From NCBI GenBank assembly GCA_963844965.1, contig CAWJQC010000007.1, positions 267,719 to 331,718 on the forward strand: 64,000 bases of DNA. The letters run 5' to 3'. Positions 1,363-42,112 of this stretch are shown here, piece by piece (position 1 is the first letter of the stretch; the number at the start of each line of letters is the position of its first letter). The translations under genes and the position numbers were made by a program. Under the pieces are notes generated by a model. It did no database searches and was not told where the DNA came from. It saw only the letters and a list, made by a program, of their open reading frames with translations. This DNA comes from an uncultured bacterium (GTDB lineage Bacteria; Patescibacteriota; Minisyncoccia; UBA6257; 2-01-FULL-56-20).

Positions 1363-1394
1363 GAACTTTTTCTGGAAAAAAGAACGCCACGGAG

Positions 1395-2066: not shown

Positions 2067-2701
2067 TTATGCCTCCTTTCGCTTAGCGGTGCATCTTTTC
2101 AATTTTCGCAAGACCATCGCTAGTGCGCAATAAGCATTTACATCGGTCTTTTTCGCGAGTTCAAGGAACGCTTCCGCTTCTTTTATCCAGCGGGGAAATT
2201 TAGCGCGATTGGGATTTGATCGCGGTATGAGCGGGGCGCGCCTTATCGTGTCATACTTGTCGGCAATGCCAAGGAGTTTTATTCCCCGGCTTCCGTTGCG
2301 GACAAAATCATTGAAGAACCGCGCCTTGAGGATTTTCTTCTCGGCTTCGGTTTCGTGGGCTTCTGGCATCCGAGTTACTCCTTTAACGATATCGTGTGTT
2401 TCGGGACGAATAGGTGCTCAATCGTTTCCAGCGCAACGCCGCCGTCTTCCACGACGTCGTGCAGAAGGGCGGCGGCAAGCAGATGGTAATCGCGGACACG
2501 GAACGTTTCAAAGAGAAAATTGAACACGGCGAGCGGATGGACGAAGTACGGATATGATTCAATTCCGAATTTTTTCTGCCCCCGATGCGCCGCTTCAGCC
2601 ATGTTGTATGCCCGCCAGAGCGCCGATTGTTCGGCGCAGGTAAGTTGCCTGGCGTTCTTCATGAATCGGCGCTTTGCGGCTTTGAGCGATGGGTAACGCA
2701 T
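2067..2701 (-). CDS. HD-domain (p)ppGpp-hydrolase-like protein (SpoT/RelA hydrolase motif), split into two ORFs by an apparent 1-nt indel
   Basis: ORF 2375..2701 contains HRGQ...YPYFVHPLAV...ALLHDVVEDGG, the signature of RelA/SpoT HD hydrolase domains. The abutting ORF 2067..2369 (5 nt gap, different frame) reads KLLGIADKYDTIRRA..., matching the continuing KLADRLHNMRTL helix. Confidence 0.5.
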
Positions 2702-2722
2702 GCGGCCTCCTTTCTTTGCGGG

Positions 2723-20844: not shown

Positions 20845-21888
20845 ATGAAGCACCTCATTTCGCTTAAAGAGCAGTCGCGCGAGGATATTCTTCAGATTTT
20901 GGAACTGGCGCGGAAGCTCAAGGAAAAGCGCGCGAAAGGCGAACTTACCGAATATCTCAAGGACAAGACGCTCATAATGCTTTTCCAAAAGACGTCCACG
21001 CGGACGAGGCTTTCGTTCGAGGCGGCGATGACGGAACTCGGCGGGCATGCCATATTTCTGGACGCGCGGACTTCCCAGCTTGGCCTTGCCGACTTCGGCG
21101 ACGAAATTCGCGCCATCATGCGTTTCGGGCAGGTTCTCATGTTCCGCGCGCTCAAAGTCGCGGACGTGCTCACAGCCGCTTCATTCAATCAGATTCCGGT
21201 GATTGACGCCTGCAGCGAAAAATATCATCCGGCACAATCGCTCGGCGATATGCTAACGATGATTGAACACAGCTCCCCGCGTCATCCTGAGCGCAGCGAA
21301 GGATCTCCATGCTCCCCAGCGGAATTTGCCGAGGGATTAAAAAATATCAAAAAAGTCGTCTGGCTCGGAATTGAAAATAATGTTTCAAATACCCTGAAGC
21401 TTGTTTGCGTGAAGCTTGGCGTCAGGTTTGTGATCGCCGCGCCGGAAGTGGACGCGGCGAGCGTTGATGAGGAGTTGAACAGAATGGCCGAGGCCACCGG
21501 ACTTATTTCACGGACGCTGAATCTGAAAGAAGCTCTCGCCGGAGCGGATTATGTTCACACCGATACCTGGCTCAACATGGAGTTTTTCGACACGACGGTG
21601 TCGACCCTGAGCGAAGTCGAACGGGTTCATGGAAGCCGCGTGAAGCCGCAATTCGCGGAAGAATTGGAACGCAGGAAGAAAATTTTCATGCCTTACCAGC
21701 TGAATGCCAAGCTGATTGATACCTATGCCCCGAAGGCGAAGATAATGCATTGTCTTCCCGCGCACGTCGGCTATGAAATTTCCCGCGATGCCATTGACCA
21801 CAAGAATTCCGTTATTTTTGACCAAGCCGAGAACCGCCTGCACATCCAAAAAGCCGTAATTATGTGGCTCTTGGGGAAGGGGACATAG
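20845..21888 (+). CDS. argF: ornithine carbamoyltransferase with an in-frame ~20-aa repeat-element-derived insertion
   Basis: STRTRLSFE carbamoyl-phosphate motif, HCLPAHVG, and a C-terminus similar to OTCases. Insertion SSPRHPERSEGSPCSPAEFAEG is encoded by the palindromic repeat unit at 21281-21307. Confidence 0.8.
   Translation: MKHLISLKEQSREDILQILELARKLKEKRAKGELTEYLKDKTLIMLFQKTSTRTRLSFEAAMTELGGHAIFLDARTSQLGLADFGDEIRAIMRFGQVLMFRALKVADVLTAASFNQIPVIDACSEKYHPAQSLGDMLTMIEHSSPRHPERSEGSPCSPAEFAEGLKNIKKVVWLGIENNVSNTLKLVCVKLGVRFVIAAPEVDAASVDEELNRMAEATGLISRTLNLKEALAGADYVHTDTWLNMEFFDTTVSTLSEVERVHGSRVKPQFAEELERRKKIFMPYQLNAKLIDTYAPKAKIMHCLPAHVGYEISRDAIDHKNSVIFDQAENRLHIQKAVIMWLLGKGT
21281..21307. repeat. 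palindromic repeat unit GTCATCCTGAGCGCAGCGAAGGATCTC (single arm, in-frame inside argF)
   Basis: Near-identical to both arms of the inverted pair at 59294..59365. It encodes ...RHPERSEGS... in the argF frame. Confidence 0.6.
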
Positions 21889-26000: not shown

Positions 26001-27319
26001 ATGGCAAACTCTGCGAATCACAACGGAGAAAATTATAAAAAAAAGTTTTTATTTGTGTCTTTGGAAAGTTTGAGCGGGGACCTGGCGTGGAACGTTTTGA
26101 AAGAAGGAAACCAGGTCAAAATTTATATAGAGAGAAAAGAGGATGTTGACGTCTACAATGGTTTTCTGGAAAAAGTTGACGACTGGAAGAAATTCGTTGA
26201 CTGGGCGGACGTGGTCGTTTTTGACGATGTTGAGTTCGGCGGGTTCGCCGACAAGCTGAGGCAAAAAGGTAAGCTGGTCATCGGCGGCTCGGAATACACC
26301 GACCGTCTTGAGATTGATAGGGAGTTCGGGCAGACGGAACTCAAAAAATACGGAGTGAGCACCCTGCCGAGCTGGCAATTTTCCGATTACGACGAGGCGA
26401 TAAAATTCATACGCCAGAATCGCGACAGGTACGTTTTCAAACCGAGCGGAAATACGCCGAGCGACGGGAAAGGTTTGCTTTTTCTCGGGCAGGACGAGGA
26501 CGGCCACGACATGATAGAACTTCTGGAGGGGAACAAGGACGTCTGGAAAAAGAAAGCGCCAGTGTTCCTTCTGCAGAAATTCATTTCTGGAGTTGAAGTC
26601 GCGGTCGGCGCGTTCTTCAACGGCTCGGATTTTATCTATCCGATAAATATCAATTTTGAACACAAGCGGGTTTTTCCCGGGAACATCGGTCCCTTTGCCG
26701 GCGAGATGGGAACTTTAATGTTCTGGGATTCGCCGAACGTGCTTTTCCACGAGACGCTTGAAAAATTATTGCCGGCTCTAAAGGAATCAAAGTACGTGGG
26801 GTATGCGGATATCAATTGCATCGTGAACGGCCGCGGCATTTATCCTTTGGAATGGACGTGCCGTTTCGGTACCCGACGATCCAGATACAGTCGGAGGGGA
26901 TCTTAATGCCGGCGAGCGAGTGGTTGTGGCGCCTCACGAAGGGCGAGAATTTTGAACTTAAAACGAAGCGAGGTTTTCAGGTGGGAATGAGAATTCTCGT
27001 GCCCACGTATCTCACACGCGACAACGATCCGGAAGTTGAGGTCTACAGGGACCTCGCCGTGGCTTTCAAAAACCCGGAAAATCGCGAAGGCATTCATATT
27101 GAGGACATAAAGAACGACAAAGGAGTGTGGCGTATCGCCGGAACGAGCGGCTGCGTGCTTGTAGTGACCGGAACCGGGACAACCGTGGAAGAAGCGAGAA
27201 GGGTTATGTACAACAGAGCGAAGAATATAATGATACCCGGTATGTTTTACAGGACAGATATCGGTTTAAGCTGGGGCTCGGACAGCGATAAACTTCAAAC
27301 CTGGAGGTATTTGGATTGA
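26001..27319 (+). CDS. PurD-like ATP-grasp protein (frameshift near 26870), immediately upstream of mraZ
   Basis: ORF 26001..26906: …FEHKRVFPGNIGPFAGEMGTLMFWDSP… matches PurD DHKR..GD.GPNTGGMGAY. ORF 26816..27319 in another frame gives RFGYPTIQ… and GIHIEDIKNDKGVWRIAGTSGCVLVVTGTGTTVEEARRVMYNRAKNIMIPGMFYRTDIG, a PurD-like C-domain. The N-terminal ~150 aa is atypical. Confidence 0.55.
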
Positions 27320-27526
27320 TAAAAGCTTGATAGTTGATAATCTGTGGATATCTGACGGCCTCGCTTGATGATTTGTCTTGTAAAATAAGGATTCTTTCGC
27401 CGCTTCGGCGGCGATTTTTTGTTTTTGACACGCTTCGGCGGTGGTGTATCGTTAAATGAAAGTGGTGAATTGTGGATAAAGCTGGGGATAAATGCCACTT
27501 TCTGTGCAGAACTTTCCTTCAAACCA

Positions 27527-27958
27527 ATGCTACTCGGCGAATATCAACACAATTTGGATTCCAAAGGTCGGGTGGCAGTTCCGGCCAAATTCAAAGAAAA
27601 ACTTGCGGCCGGCGCCATCATTACGCGCGGGTTGGATAACTGCCTGTTTGTTTTCGCGTCCAAGGAGTGGGATGTCTTGGCGCAGAAATTGGTGGCTTTG
27701 CCTCTCGCTCAGGCGAATTCGCGGGCGTTCGTGCGGCTGATGCTCGCGGGCGCGATGGACGCGACGCTGGACAATCAGGGCCGCATATTGATCCCGGATT
27801 ACTTGCGGAAGTACGCCGACCTTAAGAAGCAGGTGATAATCGCGGGTTTATACAACCGCGTGGAGGTTTGGGACGCCGAGAAGTGGAGCGAGTATAAGAA
27901 GAAAACGGAGGGAGCGTCCGAGGAAATAGCGGAAAAGCTGGGTGAGCTCGGTATATAA
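27527..27958 (+). CDS. mraZ: transcriptional regulator MraZ
   Basis: MLLGEYQHNLDSKGRVAVPAKF… and a second SpoVT/AbrB-like half (…LDNQGRILIPDYLRKYADL…). Start taken at the internal Met of ORF 27419..27958. Confidence 0.85.
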   Translation: MLLGEYQHNLDSKGRVAVPAKFKEKLAAGAIITRGLDNCLFVFASKEWDVLAQKLVALPLAQANSRAFVRLMLAGAMDATLDNQGRILIPDYLRKYADLKKQVIIAGLYNRVEVWDAEKWSEYKKKTEGASEEIAEKLGELGI

Positions 27959-27960
27959 AT

Positions 27961-28054
27961 TTCTAATTCCTAATTATTCTAATTGACCTAAGGAATGACC
28001 AATGAATAAATTTTTGAAAATTGGGAGTTTTTTAGAAATTAGAAATTAGATCAA
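27961..28054. promoter_or_regulatory. mraZ-rsmH intergenic inverted array of octamer repeats (3x TTCTAATT ... 4x AATTAGAA)
   Basis: ttctaattcctaattattctaattgacc…tagaaattagaaattagatcaattagaaattc, ending 10 nt before the rsmH ATG. Confidence 0.45.
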
Positions 28055-28064
28055 TTAGAAATTC

Positions 28065-28973
28065 ATGCACCACCATCCGGTTCTTTTAAAAGAAATCATA
28101 AAATTTTTAGATCCGAAACCCGGCGAATTCATTGTTGACGGCACGGTTGACGGAGGAGGACACGGCGCCGAAATTTTTGAAAAGATTTTACCGAATGGAA
28201 GACTTTTGGGCGTAGACCTGGATGCCGATCTCCTGGAAAAAGCTTCGCGGGCAGTTTCCGCGAAAGTCAAAAGCCGGAAATCAAATATCAACAGCAATTT
28301 GATTTTGGTTCGGGGCAACTACGCCGACCTACCGGATATTTTGGAAGAAAAAAAGTTGCCGAAGGCCGACGGTTTGCTTCTGGATCTGGGATTTTCCTCC
28401 GAACAATTGGAGAACGCCGAAAAAAGGGGATTCAGCTTTGAAAAAAATGAGCCGCTTTTGATGACCTACAGCGCCGGGCGGAAGCCCGTCAAAGAAATTC
28501 TCACGGAACTTGACGCCAAGGAGCTTGCGAAAATCATCTTTGAACTGAGCGGTGAGAAGTTCGCGATGCGGATAGCGCGGGCGATAAAAGAACGGGGGCG
28601 GACGAGAGCAGTAGAGACAAGCGGTGAGCTCGCGGAAGCGGTCCGGGGCGCGGTGCCCAAAAATTATGAGCGCGGCCGCATTGATCCCGCGACGAGAACT
28701 TTTCAGGCGCTGCGGATTTACGCGAACGACGAACTAGGGAATCTTAAAAAAGTTTTGGACAGATTGGGAGAAATTCTGGAACCGGGCGGGAGAGTGGTGA
28801 TTATAAGTTTCCATTCGCTTGAGGATCGAATAGTGAAGGATAATTTTCGGAAGCTGGAGGAATCCGGAGAACTCCGGATTTTGACGAAGAAGCCGGTTCG
28901 CCCCGCGGAAGAGGAAATTTTGAAAAATCCGCGCAGCCGCTCAGCTAAACTGCGCGCCGCTATCATGGAGTAA
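28065..28973 (+). CDS. rsmH: 16S rRNA (cytosine1402-N4)-methyltransferase RsmH (MraW)
   Basis: HHPVLLKEII…DGTVDGGGHG…DLGFSSEQL…SFHSLEDRIVK, the conserved MraW motifs. It sits in the dcw cluster. Confidence 0.9.
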   Translation: MHHHPVLLKEIIKFLDPKPGEFIVDGTVDGGGHGAEIFEKILPNGRLLGVDLDADLLEKASRAVSAKVKSRKSNINSNLILVRGNYADLPDILEEKKLPKADGLLLDLGFSSEQLENAEKRGFSFEKNEPLLMTYSAGRKPVKEILTELDAKELAKIIFELSGEKFAMRIARAIKERGRTRAVETSGELAEAVRGAVPKNYERGRIDPATRTFQALRIYANDELGNLKKVLDRLGEILEPGGRVVIISFHSLEDRIVKDNFRKLEESGELRILTKKPVRPAEEEILKNPRSRSAKLRAAIME

Positions 28974-29048
28974 TCGCGAATAACGCGAATGATAGCAAAT
29001 AACGCGAATAAAATTCGCATTATTCAATAAAAATTAGCATTATTCGCG
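28967..29048. repeat. ~85-bp repeat family copy 2 (GCGAATAATGC sub-repeat array), rsmH-ftsL intergenic
   Basis: See copy 1 at 23890..23971. It begins at the rsmH stop codon. Confidence 0.6.
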
Positions 29049-29057
29049 AATACTCTA

Positions 29058-29393
29058 ATGACCTTTATCCAACCAAACAAAAACAGCGGCATTTTAAATA
29101 AAATTTTGGCTGTCCTTGTGATCTGCTCGGTTTTTAGTGGCGCGGCGCTAGTTGTGTTGTATAATAGGATAGTCAATTTTGACCACGGCCTTGATAAGGC
29201 GAAAGCCGAGCTGGCTAGCCTGCAATCGCAGAACGCCGACGCTAAAGATAAAATCTTTGAATTGCTTGATACCGACAAGGATTCGGCGGCATTGAAGGAT
29301 TACGGTCTGGTTGAAGATAAAAATCCGCAATATTTAGAAATTTCCTCCAAAGACGAGAATTCACAACAATGGTCATACGCTTCTGGACGTTGA
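29058..29393 (+). CDS. FtsL-like cell division membrane protein
   Basis: 111 aa, single TM (ILAVLVICSVFSGAALVVLY) then a coiled coil. Position between rsmH and ftsI is conserved for ftsL. Confidence 0.45.
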   Translation: MTFIQPNKNSGILNKILAVLVICSVFSGAALVVLYNRIVNFDHGLDKAKAELASLQSQNADAKDKIFELLDTDKDSAALKDYGLVEDKNPQYLEISSKDENSQQWSYASGR

Positions 29394-31004
29394 TTTTGGG
29401 CTTAACCGCGGCCTATTCTTTGCTTTTATTTCGTCTTTACGATCTGCAAGTAGTTAAGGGCGATTATTATCATGCGCGCTCCGAATCGCAATATGTCGCC
29501 CAGGATGCCGCCTCCTCGAACCGAGGCGTTATTTATTTTACGGACAAAAATAACAGCGAAATTCCGGCAACCCTGAACAAGGATTTCCCGATCATATACG
29601 CGGTGCCTAAGGATGTTGAAGATCCATCGGAGGCCGCGAACACTCTTGCCGGGATCCTGAATAAGCCGGTAAGCGATCTCGCCGCGACTCTGTCCAAAAC
29701 CAATGATTCTTACGAAGTTTTACTAAGGAAGGCGGATGCCGACACGGCAAAAGCCGTGGACGATTTGAAAATTAATGGGATTTACGTTGATACTGAAGTC
29801 AGGCGCTATTATCCGTTTAACGACATGGCGTCGCAGGTTTTGGGCTACGTCGGGCCGAAGAGCGACGGTTCGGGGAATAAGGGCTACTATGGCGTGGAAG
29901 GATTTTATGATTCCGAACTCGCGGGCGGGGACGCCGTTGAGGTTGACGGCGCGAGTGGACCTAAATCCGGCGCCGATATCACCCTTACGATTGATCCGAA
30001 CATACAGAGTGAAGCGGAAAAAATTTTAGAGAATTTACTTTCAACTTATAACGCGAGCGGCGGCAGTTTTGTTGTTGAAGATCCGCAAACTGGGAAAATT
30101 TTAGCGATGGGCGGCCTTCCCGATTTTGACCCGAACAACTACGGCAGTGCTCCGATGGCCGATTTTCTGAATCCAACGGTGCAACAGATCTACGAACCAG
30201 GTCTCTGTTTTCAAGGTCATTACGATGGCGACTGGTATTGATTCCGGGAAGATTACTCCGGACACGACTTACTTTGACACGGGCAGCGTTACCCTGAACG
30301 GCAGGACGATACAGAATTACGACCTGAAAACTCATGGTCCTTACGGCAAAGCGACGATGACGAACGTGATAGAGCACTCTATAAACACCGGCGCGGTTTT
30401 CGCGGAGAGGCAAATTGGCAGGGATATTTTTACCGAGTATCTGAACAATTTCGGTTTTGCCGAAAAGACGGGCATAGATTTACCGGGGGAACTAAAGGGA
30501 GATTTAAGGCAACTGTCTCCACAGGCGCGGGATATTGCTTTCGCGACGGCTTCCTATGGCCAAGGAGTAGCCGTGACGCCCATTGAACTCGTGAATGCGT
30601 TCGCGGCCGTCGCGAACGGCGGCAATCTGATGAGGCCATACGTGAACGCCGCCCTGGAACCAAAAGTTATAAGGCGCATAATAACCGAGAGTACTGCGCA
30701 AGCCGTGACCGGAATGATGATTTCCGCGGTGGACAAAGCCGGCATCGCCAGTATCGCGAACTATTCTGTCGCCGGAAAAACGGGTAGTGCCTACATTCCG
30801 GATTTCAAGAATGGCGGCTACACAAATAAACTTATTGACAGCTACGCCGGCTTCGGGCCCACGAGCAACCCGAGGTTCGTTATACTCTTTAAGGTGGATG
30901 ATCTGGACGAATCTCAGCTTGCGGCCACCATCATTGTTCCGGCTTTCCGCGAGATGGCGCAATTTATGTTGAATTACTACAACATAGCGCCGGACAGATT
31001 ATGA
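29369..31004 (+). CDS. ftsI: peptidoglycan D,D-transpeptidase FtsI / PBP (1-nt insertion near 30203 splits the gene at the SXXK active-site region)
   Basis: ORF 29369..30241: TM, PBP dimerisation domain, RRYYPFNDMASQVLGYVG, …IYEPG then garbled. ORF 30225..31004: MATGIDSGKITPD…HSINTG (SxN)…AGKTGSA (KTG). Removing the c in ggtCtctg restores EPGSVFKVITMATGID. Confidence 0.8.
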
Positions 31005-31048
31005 AATGAAGTGGACATTTTGATATTTAAATTTTACATTTAAATCAT

Positions 31049-32336
31049 ATGTCGGATACGAGCTTGCAAACATTGCGCTGGCTTCTGAAAAAATTGGCGC
31101 AACTTACGATTTGGCGCTACCAGCCGGGCGTCATCGGTATTACCGGAAGCGTCGGCAAGACGTCCACGAAACTTGCTCTTAGGGCGGTGCTGGAAAAAGA
31201 GCGGCGCATGCGGGCGTCTTCGGGCAACTTGAACAACGACCTTGGTTTGCCGCTCGCCGTTTTGGGCGGCTGGAGCCAGTCGGACTTGAGGCTGGTGAGC
31301 CGCGAACAGCCGCCACACACGGCGCGCGTCAGTAAGGCGTTTTTTTGGCTGAAGGTTGTTTTGGTTTCGGTTTGGCGGCTGGTTTTCGTGAACAGAAGAA
31401 GCTATCCCGAAATCCTGGTCTTGGAGTACGGTGCCGACCGGCCGGGAGATCTGAAACAGCTTCTTGAGATAGCGCGTCCGAACATAAGCATTATCACCGC
31501 TATCGGCGAGACACCGGTACACGTGGAATTTTTTGCCGGACCGGAAGAGGTCGCGCGGGAAAAAGCGCGGCTGATAGAATGCTTGCCGGTGGCCGGCTTC
31601 GCTGTTCTCAATTATGATGACGAAACGGTTATGGAGTTGAAGGACAGGACGCGCGCGCATATCGCGACATTCGGTTTCGCGAGAGGAGCCGGAGTGCAGG
31701 TCACGCGGTTTGAGAACCGTTCCGAGGGCGGGCGGCCCCTTGGCATCTCTTTCAAACTTGAATATGGAGGAAATTTCGTTCCGGTGAGGATTGACGGCGT
31801 TTTCGGCAAATCGCAGGCCTATGCGGCCGCAGCCGCCGCTTCCATCGGTTTGATTTTCGGCATGAATCTCGTTAAAATTTCCGAAGCACTCAGGGACTAC
31901 AAGCCGGCCGATTCGCGCATGCAGCTTCTCCCAGGCGTTAAGTACGCCTACATTATTGATGACGCTTACAACGCGAGCCCGCTCTCCATGCACGCCGCGC
32001 TTGATGTTCTCCGCGGTCTGCCGGCAAAAAGGAAAATAGCGGTTCTCGGCGACATGCTGGATATTCGGCAAGTACGCTATTGAAGCACATGAGCGGGTGG
32101 GGCGTCTCGTCGCCGGATTCGCGGATATTTTGGTGACCGTGGGACCGAGGGCGAAGTTCATAGCCGAAGCCGCGCGCGAGGCAGGCATGCGCAAGAACAA
32201 TATTTATTCGTTTGACACGGCTGACGAAGCTACGAAGCCAGTTCAGGATTTTATAAGAAAAGGGGATTTGATTTTGGTGAAAGGCTCGCACGCGATGGAG
32301 CTTGAAAAGGTAGTGGAGGAGATTAAGGCCTTCTAG
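31049..32336 (+). CDS. murF: UDP-N-acetylmuramoyl-tripeptide--D-alanyl-D-alanine ligase MurF (1-nt insertion near 32062)
   Basis: GITGSVGKTSTK (Mur ligase P-loop), NLNNDLGLPLAVL, DDAYNASPLSM. Deleting one a in gatatt restores LGDMLDFGKYAIEAHERVGRLVAGFADILVTVG… in frame with ORF 32097..32336. Confidence 0.8.
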
Positions 32337-32438: not shown

Positions 32439-32510
32439 GGCGCATTCGTCTAGTGGCCAGGACAGGTGGTTCTCATCCACCAAACAGGGGTTCGATTCCC
32501 CTATGCGCTA
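32439..32510 (+). tRNA. tRNA-Glu (anticodon CUC)
   Basis: Acceptor GGCGCAT/ATGCGCT, D arm TTCGTCTAGTGGCCAGGACA nearly identical to E. coli tRNA-Glu, anticodon stem GGTGG/CCACC with loop TTCTCAT, T arm AGGGG-TTCGATT-CCCCT. An AT-rich palindrome sits upstream (32337-32438). Confidence 0.8.
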
Positions 32511-32641
32511 CATTCAGCTTTCGTTATCGAGGAGACGCGGTTGCGTCCATTTGTGCTACATTTTCCAAAGATGTTGGCAAGTAAATTAGAAGAGAGTAGG
32601 CTATATTGCGGATAGTAAAATAGCTGTTTCGATACAAAAGC

Positions 32642-34782
32642 ATGCTAGAAAAGATAACCTCAATCAAAAATGTGGGTCGGTTCCGCAACAGTCCTGCTAC
32701 TGGTGACGTGACTTTCCGTCGCCACACAATGATATTCGCCGAGAACGGGAGGGGTAAAACAACTCTTTGTGCCATCCTACGCTCGCTGTCCACCAACACA
32801 CCCGCCTTCATCATCGGGCGCAAGACGTATCGGCGGCAACGGTCAGCCGGAAGTCCAACTACTTCTCAACGGCGACTCCGTAACATTTCATGATGGAGTT
32901 GGAGTGCTCCGTTCCCGAACGTGGCGATCTTTGATGGGACCTACGTCAGCGAAAATGTGTTTGCGGGTGACGTGGTTGATACCGAAAACCGACGTAACCT
33001 TTACCGCGTTATTATTGGTGCTCAAGGCGTGGCTCATGCTGGCCGACTCAATGATCTCGATAACCAGATCAGGACTAAAAATAATGAAATCAGGGATGTC
33101 AGAGCGCGGATGCAACCTCATATGCCGCCAGGTACAACAGTTGAAGATTTCATCGCCTTACCCGAAGATGCGACAATCAGTGAGAAGATTTTGGCGAAAG
33201 AACAGGAACTTCAAGCGGTACAACGTGCTGCTCAGTTACAGCAAAAACAGGGTCTAACAGCAGCTGCGGTACCGACCTTTCCCGCATCATTTGCTGAGAC
33301 TCTTGGCAAAACTCTTGAGAATCTTGGGGCAGGCGCCGAGAAGCTTGTCGCCGATCACATTTCACAGCATCAAATGCGAACGCATGGGGAGACTTGGCTG
33401 AGGGATGGCCTCCCTTTTGTGGTCGATGAGTCATGTCCATTCTGCGGGCAATCGCTTGTAGGCGTCGATTTGATTCAGGTATACAAAACTTTTTTCAGCA
33501 ATGAGTACCACGCGCTGCGTAGTGAAGTGATGAAACTAAGTGCGCAGGTTGAGGGTGTGCTCGCGGAGCGTGTATCTGCGGCAATTGAACAAACGCTTTT
33601 ACAGAACAGCAACAACGCCGAGTTCTGGCAACAATATTGTGATTTCGTGCCGCCCGTTCTGCCGGGAGCGGAAAGGCTTGGAGAAATTATCACCGCGCTC
33701 CGGCAATCCGCTCAGTCTCTTTTACAAATAAAGTCGGGGGCACCGCTTGACGCAGTGCCACCGGACGAGGGATTCACTAAATCACTTGTCGCATTCGAGG
33801 CCTTACGCACCTCCCTAGCCAACTATAATGCCGCAGTCGCCGCAGTAAACGTCACAATTGAAGCCAGAAAGCGTGCTACGCAGGCAACGAATGTGCGCGA
33901 AGTTGAAAATGCGGTCGCCAAACTGAAGGGGCAAAAGAATCGCTATACAGTGGGCGTGCAGGAACTTTGCGCGACCGAGACGCGTCTACAGGGTGAAAAG
34001 AAAATTCTCGAAAACGAAAAAGCGCTGGTGCGAGGTCAACTGGACACTCATACGGGACAGGTAATCACCCAATATGGCCAAATCATCAACCGTTTTCTGG
34101 AGCGGATAAATGCGGGATTCAGAATCACTGTGCCATCACACAACTACCGTGGAGGAACGCCGAGTACGAGCTACCAGATTCTTATCAATCAAAATGCGAT
34201 TGATTCTTGGAGACGCAGCGACGCCGACAGACAGACCGAGCTTCAAGAACACTTTGAGTGCTGGCGACAAAAGCACATTGGCTCTCGCATTTTTTCTGGC
34301 ACAACTTGAGCAGGATTCGGATCGTGCTCAAAAAATAGTCGTTTTCGACGATCCTTTCAGCAGTATGGATAGTTTTCGAAGAAATCATACGATCCATCAG
34401 ATATCCAAATGCGGGGAAACATGCGTTCAAGTAGTCCTTCTTTCGCACGAACCATCATTTCTAAAATTGCTGTGGATCGTGGGCACCGGCAGACCGGAAA
34501 ACGCTCCAGCTGGCACGTGTAGGAGAAGAGAACACCGTCATCATTGAATGGGATATCGAGAAAGCGGTCCAGGCACGTTATCGGGCCGATATAGAAGCGT
34601 TGCAAGGATTTTTTTCATTGGGCAAAGGCGATCAGCGGGAGGTGATTCAGAAGCTACGACTGGTGCTTGAGGCGTATTGCCGAACACTCTATCCAACGCT
34701 CATCGGTGAGGATACATTAGGTGTCATTGTAGAAAATCGGCCACGGCAGCTACACAATTCCCCTCCATCTATCGCGGGATGA
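32642..34782 (+). pseudogene. AAA_13-family (ABC/SMC-like, PrrC/RloC-type) ATPase, ~710 aa reading broken by at least 4 frameshifts
   Basis: Walker A FAENGRGKTTLCAILRSL, then (other frames) GGNGQPEVQLLLNGDSVTFHDGVGVL and VAIFDGTYVSENV. Long coiled-coil middle; ABC signature LSAGDKSTLALAFFLAQL; Walker B KIVVFDDPFSSMD; C-terminal ~150 aa continues through ORF 34600..34782. Pseudogene versus indel errors is unresolved. Confidence 0.55.
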
Positions 34783-34789
34783 TCCTCCA

Positions 34790-36239
34790 ATCAATATATT
34801 TATTGCCGTCGCTGTATCATGGTGAAAGCCCCGCTGCTGCGACCGATATATCGACGATGCAGAGCTCCAAGGATATGTCGCACGCACTCTGAAACTCGTT
34901 GGATGTCTTTAGCGCAAACTCCTATTGATAGCATCATACAAAAACTTGCCGGATTATCCGTTCCGAAGCTAGTGAACTTTTATTCGGCCTTCAAGCTTAT
35001 GACCTTATCTCTCACCACAAACTTGCTCTTGATGAGCGAGAGTAATTCTCGTTTCTCGGTGGGATTACCGTCATTTAGTACATATGCTGCGTATCATCTC
35101 GCGTCGAATTCGGCATCATCCTGCTTTATCGCTCTCACACCTAGGAATGATTTCTGGAATTTGGCGACGCGTTTTGTTTCCTCGATAAAACGCTGTTTGA
35201 TATCGGACTCGTTAATATCCAATTTGCCAATTAATCGATAAGCTGTTTAGTGAGCTCATCTTCGCGCATATATTTGTTCTAACAGAACGTATCTCGCGAC
35301 CGACAGCAACCGTAGTAGACGTACTTGGTCGTCGTACCGTCTTTAAGCTTCTTGAATTTCTCCTGTGCGCTAATGGTCGACCCGCAGAGGCCGCAGGTGA
35401 ATAGTTTCGTAAAGGCGAATTCCTTGACCTCAGCATTTCTGAAAAGACTATCTTGCTTTAGTTGTTCCTGGGTTGCTTCGAATATTTCTCTTGTGATGAG
35501 TGCCTGATGTTTCCCGGTGTACCAGTTACCGCTCCCTACGGGGTATTCGAATACACCGTAATAAAAGGTGTTTTGGAGCAGCCGATAAAGATTGCCCAGT
35601 GCCAGATGTTTGTTGCCTGAATTTGTTCGGAAATTAACTTCAAATTTGAGCCAATGAAATAGCTTCCTGCCGCTCCAGCCATTGGCCACCTTCTCAAACA
35701 TCTGTTTAACGACCGGGGCGCGTGCGGGGTCGATTATGACGCTACCTTTACGATCGACACGTTTCTCGGTCAGATATCCAGTAGGAGCCTGCGCGGGCCA
35801 CAGCCCCATTTCGCAGCGCATCCGCAGTCCTCGCTTCACGTTTACACTCTTATTGTCGTTTTCAAGCTTCGCCTGAGAGCATAGGATCATTAGCAAGAAC
35901 TTTTCGTTCGGTGAGTTGGCAAATCTTTGTCCGTAAGTTCGGATCTCATGAGTAACTTCTGATCCATGAGATCCACGAGGATCTGAGGTCGCCCGCGTTC
36001 CTACTTAACCGATCCGGTGCCCATGTGAGAATTCCTGTATATCGGCCGCTTCTAATATCCTTCAAAATTTCCAGAAACACCGACCGCTCGCCTGAGCTTT
36101 TTGCCGAGTGGGATTCCCGCCGGATGTCGACAATTTCCAATGCTTCGCGTTCGGCGATAAGAAGCATCTCCTTAATTTGCGAATCAATGGAGAGAATCTG
36201 TTTTTCTTCCGACTCAGTGCTCTTTCTCGCATAAAGCAC
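34790..36239 (-). pseudogene. decayed large serine recombinase (homolog of the intact copy at 45417..47345)
   Basis: ORF 35946..36239 is the resolvase catalytic N-terminus (MLYARKSTESEEKQILSIDSQ…ILTWAPDRLSRNAGDL). ORF 35279..35896 is the middle (…MILCSQAKLENDNKSVNVKRGLR…KYVYYGC). The C-terminus is recognisable only in shifted frames at 34790-35278. It is divergent from the intact copy and out of frame. Confidence 0.6.
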
Positions 36240-36433: not shown

Positions 36434-39225
36434 ATGGCACTGAGCTGGAACGAATTCGATCACGAGCTACTGGCTTCGCAAAAGAGTATGAATCGGCGAA
36501 ACGCCGAGATACAAGATTACGCCGATTTTTCGACAGATTTTTTTAATATCTTTGGCGTCCGGCGTCGTTCGGTTTCTATCTATCAAAAAGCGGTCCAAAA
36601 GATAAATGGCAACACGGGATTTATTAATCTTTTTTGGCCGAGTGTATTGCTCGTTGAACATAAGTCGAAAGGAGAAAACCTCGACAGCGCCTTTCTCCAG
36701 GCAAGCGATTACATCTTAGGACTCCCCGAGGAGGAAAGGCCCCGCTACGTAATTGTCTCTGATTTTGAGCAATTCGTTTATATGATCTCGAAACGGAAAG
36801 TGAAAAAACTGAAATTCACGATATCGCGTTATCAAAACTCGCGTCGCATATACGCCTCTTTGGATTTATAGCTGGCTATAAAGTACGTAAATATAAAGAG
36901 GAAGACCCCGTCAATAAAAAGGCGGTGCGTTTGGTCGTGCAGCTATATCAGGCGCTGTCCGATGGAAATTACCCGAAGGAATATCTCGCGCGTCTTATGG
37001 TCCGTTTCGTGTTTCTCTTTCTTCGCAGACGATGCGGGTATTTTCCCAAAACGTGATATTTTCCGTGATTATATGCTTTATCTCACCAAGGAAAATGGTG
37101 AGGATCTCGGTGGGCACTACATCAAATTTTCGAGATTTTGAATACCCGGAGGATAAGCGCCAGCAGGCCCTTTCTGACGATCTAAAAGACTTTCCCGTAT
37201 GTGAATGGGACTCTTTTTAAGGATCCCTTACCGCTGCCGTTTTTCAATAAGGAAATGCGGAGCGAAATTATCCGCGCAGCGCAATTCGATTGGGGCGCTG
37301 TGTCGCCTGCGATCTTCGGTTCGATGTTCCAATTCGTGATGGATGTTGAGGACAACGATATACGGCACGACTTTGGGGCGCATTATACTTCAGAAAAAAA
37401 TATCTTGAAGGTTGTGGACGGCCTCTTTTTGGACGATATAAAAAATGATCTTGAGGCCGCGGGTCAGAATCGGGCAAAACTGAATGCTCTGTGGGAAAAG
37501 ATCGCCGAGATGCGGCTTCTCGACCCCGCCTGTGGTTGTGGGAACTTCCTTGTCGTTGCCTATCGAGAACTCAGGGTTGTCGAGCTTGAAATCATCACAC
37601 GCCTGTTTCGAGATGAGTTAAAGCGGCTAGAGCAACCAACGCTTGGTATCAAAACCGATGTCTCAAAAATCTCTAAGCTTACTCTCGAGCACATGTTTGG
37701 CATAGAGATTCTTTCGTTCCCGGCGGAGATCGCCCGTCTATCGTTGTGGCTCATTGATCATCAGATGAACGTTATGCTTGGAAGTCTATTCGGGGAATAT
37801 TTCGCGAAGCTTCCTCTTAAAGAGCAACCCCATATTTTTCACGGAGATGCGCTTGCTGTTGATTGGGCGCGACTTGCGCCACAAGGAGATAATTTTTCTT
37901 ATATCCTTGGCAATCCACCCTTCATCGCGAAGCAAGATAAAGTCCTGATCAAAAAGCTGATATGCATAGAATATTTGGCGACTTGAAAGGCGCGGGCGAA
38001 TTAGATTATGTAACGGCATGGTATGCAAAGGCGGCCGATTTCATTCAAGGGACCGGAATCCATTGCGCCTTTGTTTCAACCAACTCGATTACCCAGGGAG
38101 AACAAGCTGGAATTTTATGGCCACTATTGCTCCAGAAAGGAGTCCATATCAATTTCGCGCACAGAAACATTTCGTTGGACAAATGAAGCCCCTGGGCGAG
38201 CTGGTGTGCATTGTGTCATCGTCGGTTTCTCGCTTGAAAAATCGGCTAAGCCGCTTTTATGGGACTACGACGATCCAGCCGGAAATCCCCATCTTGTAAA
38301 AGCAAAAAACATTAATCCATATCTTGTCGATGCTGATGATATTGTCGTTTTACCCCGACGGAAGCCGCTCGCCGATGTCCCGGAAGCGCAATTCGGGAGC
38401 ATGCCGAACGACAGCGGATTTTTACTCTTTGATGACGGGGCCAAAAAGGAAGAGTTTTTACTTCAGGAGCCGGGAGCTGAAAAGTTTATCCGCCCGCTCC
38501 TTTCCGCAAAGGAATATCTAAATGGATCTCTGCGATATTGTTTGTGGCTTAAAGAGGCAACACCTCAAGAATTGCGTTCAATGCCGTACCTCATGCGTCG
38601 CGTTGAAGCCGTACGAACGTATCGCGATCTTTCTTCCCGAGCGGCAACTCGCAAACTTGCCCGAACACCCTACCTTTTTGGAGAAGATCGACAACCAGAA
38701 GGTAATTACGTTCTGATCCCTCGGGTGAGTTCTGAAAGGAGGAGATACATTCCATTTTCGTTTTTTGGGCCGGAGTATATCGCTGGTGATACCTGTATCA
38801 TAGTTCCAAATGCCGCTCCTTATCATTTTGGCGTCCTCCAATCCGTAATGCATATGACATGGATGCGTGCAGTGTGTGGACGCCTCGAATCTCGATATCG
38901 CTATTCAAACGAATTAGTTTATAACAATTTTCCGTGGCCGAAGGATGTTTCTAATGAACAACGGGCGTCGATAGAAAAAGCGGTGCAAAATTTATTGGAC
39001 GTTCGCAAGGGATGTCGCGGAACACTTGCGGATCTGTACGATCCAAACGTGATGCCGCGAGAGCTTCTCGAAGCCCATTCGGCACTCGATAAAGCAGTCG
39101 ATAACGCCTATGGCATGTTCCGTGGCTTCCCCTCGGAAGCTGAGCGATTGAAATTTCTGTTTAAATTGTATGAAGACTACCTCCGTGCGGAGCCTACCCA
39201 ATTCGAGCGTAAGGTTAAGAAATGA
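36434..39225 (+). pseudogene. MmeI-family Type IIL restriction-modification enzyme (N-terminal PD-ExK nuclease + gamma-class N6A MTase + TRD), reading broken across at least 5 frames
   Basis: ORF 36434..36871 MALSWNEF…LFWPSVLLVEHKSKGENLD…QASDY is the conserved MmeI N-terminal endonuclease motif. ORF 37201..37986 has AHYTSE, LDPACGCGNFLVVAYRELR, FGIEILSFPAEIARLSLWLIDHQMN, ILGNPPF. ORF 37962..38186 has CAFVSTNSITQGEQ. ORF 38023..39225 has GRLESRYRYSNELVYNNFPWP and the C-terminal LYDPN…LDKAVDNAYG. Error versus decay is unresolved. Confidence 0.75.
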
Positions 39226-39246: not shown

Positions 39247-42112
39247 ATGGAGTACGTCATCCTCGATATCGAAACTACTGGCCTAGATAAGGAACATTCT
39301 TCTATTATCGAGATAGCTGCTATCCTCGTAGAAAAAGGAGGTGTCAAAAATAGTTATAGCTCTTTTGTTCATTATGATGGCGTTCTCTCGGAAACCGTAA
39401 AGCGGCTAACTGGCATCCAAGAAGAAGATACTCAAAAAAGCTCCACTAATAGCTGCTGTCATTTCTGAGTTGAAAAATTTTATTCAGAAGCGACCCGTTG
39501 TTGCTCATAATGGATATTCCTTCGATTTCTTTTTTCTTGAACGGGAGGGGCTGAAACTGGAAGAAAAATATGACTCTATGGAATTTGCCTTTTTTGTCAT
39601 GCCCACGAACGCTCCTGGCCATTCGATCCCTGCGCTCGCGGAACAATTTAAGTTAGGCGAAGCTCCGCATCGGGCGCTCGGGGATTGCAAGCTCGAACTC
39701 ACAATAATCAATCGTCTTCAAAAGGAATATGGAAAGAGAAAGAAATCAAAACGAGAAGTTCTTGCTCATGCCGCAGGAACGACAGGATGGTGGTGGTCCA
39801 ATTTCCTCTCGGGAGAGAAAGCTCCTACTGATCGAATTTCAAGCCTCATTGAGGCTTATGAGCCATACCGCAAAGAATATCGCGGGGCAGAAATGCTGGG
39901 ATTTCAAACAGAAGTGATCGATATTGCAGAGGTTGAAAAATATTTTCAACCAGCGGTAAAAGCGGGCGAGAAAAACGGAGAGGATGATTACTCGGAAGAT
40001 CGACCCGAACAACGAGAGATGGCGAAAATGGTAGCCACGGCGTTTAACAAGCATAAGCATGCGGTCATAGAAGCCGGTACAGGCACCGGAAAATCAAAAG
40101 CATATCTCGTGCCGTCGCTCCTTTTTGGACTCAAGAACCGCATACCGATGATCATATCGACCCATACCAAAGCACTCCAAGATCAGTTATCCCTCAAAGA
40201 AATACCGCACATAAAGAATCTCATTCGGCCCGATCTGCGCGTTGCTGTTCTCAAGGGAAAACAAAATTACGTCTGCTTGGCAAAATTCGAGATTTTTGCC
40301 GAAGAAACTGTGAAGGAGCTTTCGCAACGATCCTTGTATGAGTTTGGTGAATCGGAAACTCGGTATTCAACACGCCTCGCTTATTTATTGCTCTTCTCGT
40401 GGATTCTTGAAGCTGAGTATGGCGATTGGGACGAGCTGCCATACTGGATCAAAGAGCGGATTCCCAAATATATACAAGCCGAAATCTGCAATATCGATGA
40501 GCTTTGCGGCAATGGGACTTGCGACATCTATGACGCAGAAAAATGTTTCCTTGCTAAGGCCAGGCTTCGCGCACGTGATGCCGATCTTGTGATTGTAAAT
40601 CACGCGCTTGCTCTTATGGGCATCATTATTGAGGATAAGACTCCCGAAATACCCAGTGAGCCAGGCGTCGATGTGCCTCCGAGTAAAATGTATAGTCATA
40701 CGGTCTTTCCTAACGAGTCGAAATTCATCGTATTCGACGAGGCCCAACATCTTGAGGACGACGCAACTTCGGCATGGGAGCATGTGCTCTCCCAGAGTTT
40801 CCTACAACTAATTCTCCAGCAACTTTATGGTAAGCGAGGCGTCCAGCAGCTTGTAAAATCTATCGCCAGCAAAAAAACTGATGAACGACTCACGCGGCTT
40901 GCAGCAAATTTTGAGAGTGGCGAAGGCAACATAAAAATCGGCGTCGAGGCGCTTTTTAAAAATATCTTACCGCACCTCGTTTCCGAAAGTGATACACGGG
41001 AAACTTATACTATGCTCGATGAAATTCCCGATACCTCTCCGGAGCGGAAAGCGCTATTCTCTGAGCTACGGAGCTTGCGGCAACGATTTCTTGATATTGC
41101 AAGAATATTAAGTGAATTTTCGGAAGAAACCGAAGTTCCAAGGATGCGCAAAACCCTTTCCGTCCGCTACAACACTCTTCAACGGATCGTGCGCTCATTC
41201 GATGCCATTCTAGAAAACGATAACGTATATGTGAGATACCTCCAGCGATTCGGTTCAAGCGTTGAAATTAAAGCTGCTCCACTCTCGGTCGGTCCATACC
41301 TGAAAGATTATGTCTACGATAATTTTGCTTCGGTAGTTATGACCTCGGCGACACTCACTGTCGGCAAACGGTTCAATTTCTTCGCGAGCCGCTGTGGGAC
41401 ATTATTAGTCGACAAAGAAAAGATTGGGTACAGACTTTTCCATTCCTCCTTCAACTACGAGAAGCAAGTTAAATTTTTTGTTCCGAAAGGAATTAACTAT
41501 AAAGAAGATCGCGAAACCCATCTTGCGAAAAGCACTGAGTTTCTTAAAAAAGCGATTGTCGCCTCCGGCGGAGGCGCGCTCGTGCTTTGCTCAAGCCACG
41601 ATCAGGTCGGAGAACTTTACCAAGGGCTCTCAAAGACACTTTCTGAAAACAATATTTGGCTTCTCCGGCAGCAGAAAGGCATATCAGTAAGCTCCGTCAT
41701 CAGAGATTTTAGAAGGGACGTCGATTCGGTGCTTATTGGCACCGAGACCCTCTGGCAGGGCATCGATGTTCCCGGGGAATCGCTCCGCAGCCTTTTTATT
41801 TATAAGATTCCATATCGAATGCCTGGCCTTCCTCTCATCAAAGCCCGCCGGAAAGAGATTGAAGATAACGAGCGGGATAGCTTTGCCGAATATTATGAAC
41901 CGCTTGCCGCTCTAATTCTCAAGCAGGGATTCGGGCGGTTGATCCGCAAATCCACTGACATCGGTATCGCCGTACTTCTCGATGAAAACTTTCTTAAAAA
42001 GCCGAGCCTTATGAACTCCCTTCCGGAAGGCGTCCACCCTCAAGCTGCCGAGCCGGAAGCTATTTGCGAAGAACTTCATAAATTACACTTGTTGCGACTG
42101 AAGGAGAGTTAG
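39247..42112 (+). CDS. dinG: bifunctional DnaQ-like 3'-5' exonuclease / DinG-family (Rad3-like) ATP-dependent helicase (frameshift in an A6 run at ~39448)
   Basis: ORF 39247..39468 YVILDIETTGL (Exo I). After an A-run the alternative frame gives …VVAHNGYSFDFFFL (Exo II) and HRALGDCK (Exo III) in ORF 39470..42112. Helicase motifs VIEAGTGTGKSKAYLVPSL, VFDEAQHL (DEAH-like), and C-terminal QGFGRLIR. Confidence 0.8.

What the first reader, a model, noticed from the sequence alone, without database searches (positions are those of the whole stretch)
32642..34782. AAA_13 / PrrC-RloC-like ABC ATPase immediately downstream of a tRNA gene
An N-terminal ABC head (GENGRGKTT), the VAIFDGTYV motif, a >250-aa coiled-coil spacer, ABC signature LSAGDKS, Walker B VVFDDPFSSMD and a ~150-aa C-terminal domain give the architecture of RloC/PrrC-type tRNA anticodon nucleases and related defense ATPases. 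The reading is interrupted by several frame changes. Sitting next to a Type II RM gene (with a dead recombinase between) echoes the PrrC-hsd association.
Basis: partly seen in the sequence, partly recalled or inferred. Interest (0 to 1): 0.5.

Follow-up and report, generated by a model that had tools for sequence, protein, structure and literature searches.

The report
Frameshifted RloC-type tRNA-cutting defence gene
This is a member of the already described RloC family of bacterial anti-phage enzymes (a Rad50-like ATPase fused to a HEPN RNase that cuts tRNA anticodons), sitting beside a restriction-modification gene in a Patescibacteria genome; its reading frame is broken eight times in a sequence whose essential genes are broken too, so the finding is essentially ordinary.

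Summary
A gene of about 757 codons runs on the + strand from 32642 to 34912, not 34782. It starts 130 nt after tRNA-Glu(CUC). It has Walker A, an invariant CPFC inside a ~360-aa helical insert, an ABC signature, Walker B and a ~150-aa C-terminal domain.

The frame is broken by 8 small indels and has no in-frame stop. After repair it is 69% identical over its full length to a family of more than 1000 proteins of ~760 aa.

A family member aligns end to end (E 8e-111) with the 770-aa Rhodoferax protein that appears to be entry 39 of the original RloC list. About half of the homologues examined lie next to RM genes. Here the neighbour is an MmeI-type enzyme, beyond a serine recombinase.

The verdict is an RloC-type ABC-HEPN anticodon-nuclease defence gene, a new member of a known kind.

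SecA, FtsI, MurF and PurD are frameshifted in the same window, so the breaks are probably sequence errors. The density in this gene is higher, though, so real decay cannot be excluded. Interest is low.

The parts
32439..32511 (+). tRNA-Glu (anticodon CTC), 130 nt upstream of the gene. It is a neighbour, not shown to be functionally linked.
   Evidence: ARAGORN. None of 12 homologue loci has a tRNA directly next to the gene. No repeat of the tRNA 3' end was found downstream.
32642..34912 (+). RloC-type ABC-ATPase / helical CX2C insert / HEPN gene, about 757 codons, interrupted by 8 indels. The indels are +1 at 32828, -1 at 32898, +1 at 34205, +1 or -2 at 34476, -2 at 34732, +2 at 34796, -1 at 34813 and -1 at 34848. 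Stop codon TAG at 34910-34912.
   Evidence: Frameshift-aware alignment to P0001, P0002 and P0010. Homologues are 69% identical at 100% coverage. Pfam AAA_13. PADLOC PDC-S06, E 1.8e-69.
32738..32764 (+). Walker A / P-loop, AENGRGKTT.
   Evidence: G38, K39 and T41 are family-invariant.
33434..33451 (+). CPFCGQ, the CX2C 'zinc-hook' motif inside the helical insert.
   Evidence: C265, P266 and C268 are invariant in 52 homologues. The motif is identical in the Rhodoferax protein that matches the RloC list entry.
34254..34274 (+). ABC signature motif, LSAGDKS.
   Evidence: Pfam AAA_13 profile positions 497-577.
34338..34370 (+). Walker B / D-loop, VVFDDPFSSMD. The switch histidine follows in LLSHE at 34437-34451.
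   Evidence: D569, D570, S601 and H602 are invariant.
34483..34912 (+). C-terminal HEPN domain. It holds five of the eight indels: 34476 at its start, then 34732, 34796, 34813 and 34848.
34657..34683 (+). RLVLEAYCR. This is the R-x3-E of the anticodon-nuclease triad, and it also forms the HEPN E-x3-[KR] motif.
   Evidence: R673 and E677 are invariant. The motif is kept in relatives of 30-42% identity and in the Rhodoferax protein.
34801..34829 (+). YCRR (34801-34812), a 1-nt deletion, then YHGES (34815-34829). This carries the candidate catalytic histidine, equivalent to the invariant H729.
   Evidence: N721, R725 and H729 are invariant. The [YF]HH motif is kept in distant relatives.
35094..36239 (-). 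Large serine recombinase, convergent with the gene and split into several ORFs. The 3' limit is approximate.
   Evidence: Pfam Resolvase hit in 35946-36239 and Recombinase hit in 35279-35896. A distant guide alignment suggests 2-3 indels.
36434..39225 (+). MmeI-family single-polypeptide RM enzyme (Type IIL/IIG), split into at least four ORFs.
   Evidence: Pfam MmeI_N, MmeI_hel, MmeI_Mtase, MmeI_TRD and MmeI_C hits in successive ORFs.

Best explanation
The locus encodes an RloC-family defence protein.

Architecture:
- A Rad50/SMC-like ABC ATPase head.
- A ~360-aa helical insert splitting the head, carrying an invariant Cys-Pro-Phe-Cys.
- A C-terminal HEPN RNase domain.

Inferred mechanism, by analogy with Geobacillus RloC:
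- The protein is held inactive as a dimer, with the CX2C region and the ATPase acting as an internal switch.
- It is switched on by a phage-related signal, such as DNA ends or DNA damage, or loss of a neighbouring RM enzyme's function.
- The HEPN site (R-x3-E plus His) then cuts tRNA anticodon loops. This stops translation and aborts the infection.

The gene is a stand-alone cassette acquired horizontally by a Patescibacteria genome. It lies downstream of tRNA-Glu, in a small block with a serine recombinase and an MmeI-type RM gene.

The eight frame breaks are most probably (about 60%) errors of the assembled sequence rather than biological inactivation.

Shown here: the architecture, the fold, the motifs, the homology and the genomic context.
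Inferred only: RNase activity, tRNA as the substrate, and the trigger.
For: Family and homology:
- More than 1000 homologues of ~760 aa. The best are 69% identical over 100% of the repaired protein, and JGI labels them 'wobble nucleotide-excising tRNase'.
- The ABC motifs and Pfam AAA_13 are present.
- The best PADLOC match is the candidate defence family PDC-S06 (E 1.8e-69).
- A family member aligns end to end with the 770-aa Rhodoferax ferrireducens T118 plasmid protein (32% identity, E 8e-111). CPFCGQ, R-x3-E and HH are aligned.
- That Rhodoferax protein matches entry 39 of the original RloC orthologue table in organism, length and helicase neighbour.

Structure:
- The full-length model shows the head, a helical insert at 127-488, the second half of the head, and a five-helix C-terminal domain.
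- The nearest solved structures for the full-length model are SMC and Rad50 heads and Lamassu LmuB.

Motifs:
- Invariant residues are R673, E677, N721, R725 and H729. They give R-X3-E-X51-H, within the published R-X3-E-X36-52-H.
- The same motifs persist in relatives of 30-42% identity.
- The authors' screen for RloC orthologues was ABC motifs plus CXXC plus the triad. All three are met.

Context:
- RM neighbours of homologues are type I embedded, Eco57I- or MmeI-type and a C5 methylase with a PD-(D/E)xK protein.
- Other homologues sit in defence or mobile islands.

Frame breaks as errors:
- SecA is in at least 5 pieces, and FtsI, MurF and PurD each have a Pfam domain split between frames.
- The repaired protein keeps 158 of 165 near-invariant residues and has no nonsense codon.
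Against: - No activity was measured, and nobody has tested this ~760-aa clade. PADLOC lists it only as an untested candidate.
- The HEPN motif is not the canonical R-x4-6-H. Here it is R725-x3-H729, and the Arg is not kept in all distant relatives.
- In the AF2 model the CX2C lies in a low-confidence loop at residue 265 of a 127-488 insert. That is not at the apex of a clean Rad50-like hairpin.
- Pfam AAA_13 and the PADLOC PrrC model do not align to the C-terminal domain.
- Identity to the biochemically characterised Geobacillus RloC could not be measured.
- Indel density in this gene is 8 in 2.27 kb, against about 0.5 per kb in the housekeeping genes sampled (P about 3e-5; 0.02 against SecA's local rate). 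Five of the eight indels fall in the toxic RNase domain. Real inactivation is therefore a live possibility.
Confidence: 0.72

Rival explanations
1. The gene is a true pseudogene. An RloC-type toxin gene was acquired on a mobile block and then inactivated in the organism by multiple indels, together with the neighbouring recombinase and MmeI genes.
For: - Eight indels in 2.27 kb, against about 8 in 15.9 kb of housekeeping sequence sampled (Poisson P 2.6e-5, with counts).
- Five indels cluster in the HEPN RNase domain. Loss of function there would relieve toxicity.
- The recombinase and the MmeI gene are also broken several times.
- The indels are not in homopolymer runs.
Against: - SecA carries at least 4 frame changes, and FtsI, MurF and PurD one each. 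The sequence therefore contains indels that cannot be biological in a living cell.
- The local rate in secA (1.5 per kb) already makes 8 only mildly unusual (P 0.024).
- There is no nonsense codon in 757 codons.
- 158 of 165 near-invariant residues are retained, including every catalytic and nucleotide-binding residue.
Confidence: 0.38
2. It is a generic SMC/Rad50/SbcC-like DNA-repair or chromosome-maintenance ATPase with no nuclease function of its own.
For: - The head and helical insert resemble SMC, Rad50 and cohesin heads in the Foldseek PDB search.
- There are weak SMC_N and SbcC hits.
Against: - It has a conserved C-terminal HEPN domain with invariant R, E and H residues, which Rad50 and SbcC lack (PMC2610378).
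- No Mre11- or SbcD-type partner gene is adjacent in the window.
- Homologues sit in RM and defence islands, not in repair operons.
Confidence: 0.03
3. It is an ABC-HEPN defence protein of a lineage distinct from RloC proper (PADLOC candidate PDC-S06). Its HEPN domain would cut a substrate other than the tRNA anticodon (mRNA or rRNA), or it would act as a non-catalytic RNA-binding module.
For: - The best HMM match is PDC-S06, an untested candidate family.
- The HEPN motif deviates from R-x4-6-H.
Against: - It shows full-length homology, with aligned triad residues, to the protein that matches an entry in the original RloC list.
- It meets the three screening criteria used to define RloC.
- Invariance of R673, E677 and H729 argues for catalysis.
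Confidence: 0.15

Closest known systems
RloC (Geobacillus kaustophilus RloC and the 72 orthologues of Davidov & Kaufmann 2008, PMC2610378; COG4694)
   Same: - The domain order is the same: ABC head, helical insert with CX2C, second half of the head, then a C-terminal HEPN RNase.
- The landmarks are collinear. GkaRloC has K44, C291, D572, R692, E696 and H737. This family has K39, C265, D569/570, R673, E677 and H729.
- The R-X3-E-X36-52-H motif is met with X = 51.
- There is full-length homology (E 8e-111) to the 770-aa Rhodoferax protein that matches a list entry.
- Both are stand-alone genes often flanked by RM genes, resolvases or integrases.
   Different: - It is only about 32% identical to the Rhodoferax protein, and its identity to GkaRloC is unknown.
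- The residue before the His is Tyr or His rather than the frequent Ser.
- The E-to-H spacing is at the long end of the published range.
- The predicted insert is not a clean symmetric hairpin with the CX2C at its tip.
- No biochemical data exist for this clade.
- The copy in the window is frameshifted 8 times.
PrrC (E. coli anticodon nuclease embedded in the EcoprrI type Ic hsd locus)
   Same: - An ABC NTPase fused to a C-terminal HEPN anticodon-nuclease domain with an R-x3-E ... H triad (R320, E324, H356).
- Genetic linkage to RM systems, and the idea of a back-up suicide RNase.
   Different: - PrrC's ATPase domain has no coiled-coil/CX2C insert. This protein is about 757 aa with a ~360-aa insert.
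- The PADLOC PrrC model matches only the signature/Walker B part (profile 85-230 of 372, E about 1e-5).
- In the window the gene is not embedded in an hsd operon. It lies about 1.5 kb from an MmeI-type gene, with a recombinase between them.
PADLOC phage-defence candidate PDC-S06
   Same: It is the best HMM match, for both the repaired protein (E 1.8e-69) and P0001 (E 3.8e-72), covering residues 1 to about 690.
   Different: PDC-S06 is a bioinformatic 'guilt-by-embedding' candidate with no tested function. The label adds no mechanism. The model alignment stops before the last ~70 residues.
Rad50 / SbcC / SMC heads and Lamassu LmuB
   Same: The ABC head fold, with a long helical insert between the Walker A and signature/Walker B halves. 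These are the top Foldseek PDB hits. A PADLOC LmuB model matches at E 1e-16.
   Different: - They have no C-terminal HEPN domain.
- They work with separate nuclease partners (Mre11, SbcD, LmuA), and none is adjacent here.

Membership tests
RloC (sensu Davidov & Kaufmann 2008) | ABC ATPase motifs: Walker A, signature, Walker B/D-loop and switch His | tested here: met
   AENGRGKTT, LSAGDKS, VVFDDPFSSMD and LLSHE are in the window. They are invariant in 52 homologues. Pfam AAA_13.
RloC (sensu Davidov & Kaufmann 2008) | CX2C motif inside a largely alpha-helical insert in the ATPase domain | tested here: met
   CPFC at 33434-33445. C265, P266 and C268 are invariant. A helical insert at 127-488 is predicted. 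CPFCGQ is identical in the Rhodoferax protein.
RloC (sensu Davidov & Kaufmann 2008) | Rad50-like antiparallel coiled coil with the zinc hook at its apex | tested here: inconclusive
   The AF2 monomer model gives many helices. The CX2C loop is at low confidence (pLDDT 56-64) and off-centre in the insert. Zinc binding and dimer geometry cannot be tested here.
RloC (sensu Davidov & Kaufmann 2008) | C-proximal Arg-X3-Glu-X36-52-His anticodon-nuclease triad | tested here: met
   R673-x3-E677-x51-H729 is invariant. In the window it appears as RLVLEAYCR and YHGES.
RloC (sensu Davidov & Kaufmann 2008) | Sequence homology to a protein accepted as an RloC orthologue | tested here: met
   P0001 against Rhodoferax ferrireducens T118 WP_011458761.1 (770 aa): 32% identity over residues 1-756, E 8e-111. 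It is equated with Table S1 entry 39 by organism, length and helicase neighbour; the accession mapping itself was not checked. JGI labels homologues 'wobble nucleotide-excising tRNase'.
RloC (sensu Davidov & Kaufmann 2008) | Wobble-nucleotide excision from tRNA; activation by a DNA-dependent ATPase; Zn sensitivity | not testable with these tools
   These are biochemical properties of GkaRloC.
HEPN superfamily | All-alpha HEPN fold | tested here: met
HEPN superfamily | Canonical R-x4-6-H active-site motif plus E-x3-[KR] | tested here: inconclusive
   E677-x3-R681 is present and conserved. The Arg-His pair is R725-x3-H729, and the Arg is replaced in some distant relatives (SQYHH, NKFHH). PrrC and RloC are described as atypical HEPN domains.
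PrrC | Compact ABC NTPase without a coiled-coil insert; match to the PrrC profile over the nuclease domain | tested here: not met
   The protein is about 757 aa with a 360-aa insert. The PADLOC PrrC hit has E 6e-6 to 3e-5 and covers only profile positions 85-230 of 372.
PrrC | Gene embedded in a type Ic hsdMSR locus | tested here: not met
   The window neighbour is an MmeI-type gene beyond a recombinase. One homologue (L010) is embedded in a type I locus.
PADLOC PDC-S06 (candidate) | Match to the PDC-S06 HMMs | tested here: met
   PDLC04895, E 1.8e-69 for the repaired protein and 3.8e-72 for P0001. The family is an untested candidate.
Rad50/SbcC/SMC repair ATPases | ABC head with coiled coil, no fused nuclease, and a partner Mre11/SbcD-type nuclease gene | tested here: not met
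   The head fold is similar. However, a fused HEPN domain is present and no partner nuclease gene is adjacent.

The most novel reading that the evidence does not exclude
This ~760-aa clade is auto-labelled RloC and listed by PADLOC only as the untested candidate PDC-S06. It could be a distinct lineage of ABC-HEPN nucleases that acts as a back-up for single-polypeptide Type IIG/IIL restriction enzymes (Eco57I or MmeI type), as PrrC does for a type Ic enzyme. The trigger would be phage inhibition of that enzyme.

An Eco57I- or MmeI-type gene lies beside the homologue in 4 of about 10 loci examined: the window, L003, L012 and pXcaw19. Its presence in a Patescibacteria (CPR) genome would then be an example of an abortive-infection tRNase in an episymbiont with a very small translational apparatus.
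Probability: 0.15. Interest if true: 0.4.

Novelty: new member of a known kind. Interest (0 to 1): 0.18.

Why it matters
It matters little beyond annotation.

- The gene should be labelled an RloC-type ABC-HEPN (anticodon-nuclease-like) defence gene rather than 'AAA family ATPase'.
- It adds a Patescibacteria example of horizontally acquired RM-linked defence.
- The more useful practical result is the warning about the sequence. Essential genes (secA, ftsI, murF, purD) are frameshifted in the same window, so pseudogene calls from frame breaks here are unreliable.
- The recurrent pairing of this clade with Eco57I- or MmeI-type enzymes is a modest lead for anyone studying RM-guarded abortive infection.

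Tried and rejected
1. Source genome. No near-identical locus was found among the GTDB representatives. The window's RsmH protein is not on record. The indels therefore could not be checked against an independent assembly.
2. Foldseek against afdb50, to look for PrrC or RloC AlphaFold entries. The library was unavailable.
3. Bona fide GkaRloC sequence. I rebuilt a fragment from the OCR text of Supplementary Fig. S1. It gave a 23-aa match around the CX2C (E 4e-4). The reconstructed fragment found nothing in 5.8 billion proteins, so the OCR rows are unreliable and I do not rely.
4. HEPN-paper supplement. It does not hold the alignments.
5. Sequence search of the PDB. It gave only weak Rad50 hits. 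No RloC or PrrC structure turned up in either PDB fold search.
6. tRNA-linked island. There is no direct repeat of the tRNA 3' end, no GC shift, and no tRNA directly next to the gene in 12 homologue loci. The adjacency is unexplained or coincidental.
7. Promoter and terminator scans are at background level.
8. Counting indels in the MmeI and recombinase genes with guides from L003 and L001. The guides were too distant for reliable counts.
9. Homopolymer-associated error signature. It was not seen at the eight indel sites.
10. PHROGs gave only an unknown-function family and an SbcC-like family. NCBIfam gave only sub-threshold ABC hits.
Full report
**1. What is in the sequence**

tRNA-Glu (anticodon CTC) lies at 32439-32511 on the + strand. 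An ATG follows at 32642.

ORF listing and three-frame translation show one long coding region split over all three frames. A frameshift-aware protein-to-DNA alignment against three homologues gave the same path each time. The path runs from 32642 to 34909, with the stop TAG at 34910-34912. It contains eight indels:
- +1 at 32828
- -1 at 32898
- +1 at 34205
- +1 or -2 at 34476
- -2 at 34732
- +2 at 34796
- -1 at 34813
- -1 at 34848

No in-frame stop codon remains after repair. The gene is therefore 130 nt longer than the finding's end coordinate of 34782.

- Walker A AENGRGKTT at 32738-32764.
- VAIFDGTYV at 32921-32947.
- CPFCGQ at 33434-33451.
- LSAGDKS at 34254-34274.
- VVFDDPFSSMD at 34338-34370.
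- LLSHE at 34437-34451.

Pfam AAA_13 matches three fragments at successive profile positions.

**2. Are the frame breaks biological?**

The same window has broken essential genes.
- SecA domains are spread over five overlapping ORFs in four frame changes between 60508 and 63061.
- The FtsI transpeptidase domain is split, with profile positions 1-43 in one ORF and 51-286 in the next.
- MurF's Mur_ligase_C domain is split 2-50 and 58-127.
- PurD is split.
- The exonuclease-DinG fusion is split at 39468/39470.

A cell cannot live with such a secA gene, so the sequence contains non-biological indels.

The repaired protein keeps 158 of 165 positions that are at least 97% conserved in 116 homologues. 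Three of the seven misses are conservative, one is the broken codon at an indel site, and the other three lie in the indel-dense 3' end. All nucleotide-binding and candidate catalytic residues are intact.

The opposing evidence is the density. This gene has 8 indels in 2.27 kb, against about 8 in 15.9 kb of the housekeeping genes I sampled. That gives P 2.6e-5 at the housekeeping rate and P 0.024 at secA's local rate. Five of the eight lie in the RNase domain, and none is in a homopolymer.

I put about 60% on sequence error and 40% on real decay. No independent copy of this genome could be found to settle it.

**3. The family**

The repaired protein finds more than 1000 proteins. The best 120 are nearly all 758-763 aa, with 58-69% identity at 100% coverage in most. 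JGI labels many of them 'wobble nucleotide-excising tRNase', and NCBI labels them 'AAA family ATPase'.

The best PADLOC match is the candidate family PDC-S06 (E 1.8e-69). The PrrC model matches only the signature/Walker B part. PDC families are untested guilt-by-embedding candidates.

A profile of the last 171 residues finds 1381 cluster representatives. Every full-length one is about 755-785 aa with the domain at its C-terminus.

**4. The C-terminal domain**

An AlphaFold model of residues 590-760 of homologue P0001 has mean pLDDT 80, with the core helices above 90. It is all-alpha.

- MtlR and YggD
- RnlA and LsoA

Invariant residues in the domain are R673, E677, G695, N721, R725 and H729. 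L676 and H728 are kept in at least 90% of sequences. Relatives of 30-42% identity keep R-x3-E-x3-[KR] and [YF]-H-H, but not H708.

The catalytic candidates are therefore R673, E677 and H729, which gives R-X3-E-X51-H. Davidov & Kaufmann defined RloC's triad as Arg-X3-Glu-X36-52-His (R692, E696 and H737 in GkaRloC). They showed that each residue is essential (PMC2610378).

**5. The N-terminal region**

The full-length model (pLDDT 78) shows these parts:
- an ABC N-lobe at 1-125
- a helical insert at 127-488
- an ABC C-lobe at 499-636
- the HEPN domain at 639-755

The nearest solved structures are SMC, Rad50 and cohesin heads and Lamassu LmuB. No RloC or PrrC structure turned up.

CPFC (C265, P266, C268) is invariant. 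It sits in a low-confidence, off-centre loop, so a Rad50-style zinc hook is plausible but not shown.

The landmarks are collinear with those of GkaRloC. GkaRloC has K44, C291, D572, R692, E696 and H737. This family has K39, C265, D569/570, R673, E677 and H729.

**6. Direct link to the original RloC set**

The authors accepted as RloC orthologues those proteins, 643-897 aa in the table, that carry ABC motifs, CXXC and the triad. This family meets all three criteria.

tblastn against plasmids found a 770-aa 'AAA family ATPase' on the Rhodoferax ferrireducens T118 plasmid, next to a helicase-related gene. It matches entry 39 of their table ('Rhodoferax ferrireducens T118, 770 aa, Helicase like').

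P0001 aligns with it from residue 1 to 756, at 32% identity and E 8e-111. CPFCGQ, R-x3-E and HH are in register.

I could not obtain the Geobacillus sequence. A fragment rebuilt from OCR text proved unreliable.

**7. Context**

In the window the gene is convergent with a large serine recombinase on the - strand at about 35094-36239. An MmeI-family RM gene follows at 36434-39225.

Among homologue loci the neighbours vary.
- One gene is embedded in a type I hsdR-S-M operon.
- Three lie beside Eco57I- or MmeI-type genes. The same RHH plus two-methylase cassette occurs in a Verrucomicrobiota MAG and on Xanthomonas pXcaw19.
- One lies beside a C5 methylase with a PD-(D/E)xK protein.
- Others sit in defence or mobile islands, or have no obvious partner.

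Serine recombinases recur nearby. They also appear in the original RloC table.

No conserved partner gene exists, so this is a stand-alone cassette. A tRNA directly next to the gene is not a family trait, and no att-like repeat marks an island.

The host is a Patescibacteria (CPR) bacterium, judged from its ornithine carbamoyltransferase. The closest RloC-type homologues that carry an organism name come from unrelated phyla, so the gene was acquired horizontally.

**8. Mechanism**

The architecture, fold, motifs and context are shown. The rest is inferred from GkaRloC and PrrC:
- A dimeric ABC head senses a DNA-related or RM-related signal.
- ATP hydrolysis and the CX2C region gate the HEPN site.
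- The HEPN site cuts tRNA anticodon loops and stops translation in the infected cell.

Substrate, trigger and activity are not testable in silico.

**9. Verdict**

The gene is RloC-like, not PrrC-like. It is a new member of a known, very populous kind, in a sequence whose frame breaks are unreliable. Interest is low.

Noticed in passing
window 60508-63061 (+), 29369-31004 (+), 31049-32336 (+), 26001-27319 (+), 39247-42112 (+): Essential or housekeeping genes are split by frameshifts. SecA is in at least 5 pieces. FtsI, MurF, PurD and the exonuclease-DinG fusion each have one break. Other genes (OTCase, TIM, MurB, MraZ) are intact. This points to clustered indel errors in the assembled sequence, so any pseudogene call in this window needs read-level support.
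   Followed up: partly
window 36434-39225 (+): An MmeI-family single-polypeptide restriction-modification enzyme (MmeI_N, hel, Mtase, TRD and C domains), split into at least four ORFs.
   Followed up: partly
window ~35094-36239 (-): A large serine recombinase (Resolvase plus Recombinase domains and a CxxC zinc-ribbon-like stretch), convergent with the RloC-type gene and also frameshifted. Serine recombinases recur beside homologues (L001, pXcaw19) and in the original RloC orthologue table.
   Followed up: partly
L012 10303-15305; L018 (Xanthomonas pXcaw19) 1-3216: The same three-gene cassette lies next to the RloC-type gene in a Verrucomicrobiota MAG and on a Xanthomonas citri plasmid. The cassette is a small RHH protein, a ~580-aa Eco57I-type N6 methylase and a ~1021-aa Eco57I-type RM fusion. 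This suggests a co-travelling module.
   Followed up: no
L010 5720-7993 and 10400-11191; L003 5144-7989: Some homologues are tightly preceded or followed by uncharacterised genes: a 757-aa protein with no Pfam hit, an HNH protein of 263 aa, and a 668-aa unknown plus an HNH_2 protein of 280 aa, with gaps of 8-12 nt. These may be lineage-specific partners. None is present in the window.
   Followed up: no
window 20845-21888 (+) and the whole window: The closest named homologues of the window's ornithine carbamoyltransferase are from Patescibacteria (Portnoy-, Magasanik-, Lipton- and Falkowbacteria) at 66-69% identity. The best unnamed hits reach 81-82%. The source is a CPR bacterium without a near-identical genome in the collections searched.
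   Followed up: partly
window 27419-32336 (+): The dcw-type cluster reads mraZ, rsmH, a small ftsL-like ORF, ftsI and one Mur ligase (MurF-like), followed directly by tRNA-Glu. No murE lies between ftsI and the Mur ligase.
   Followed up: no
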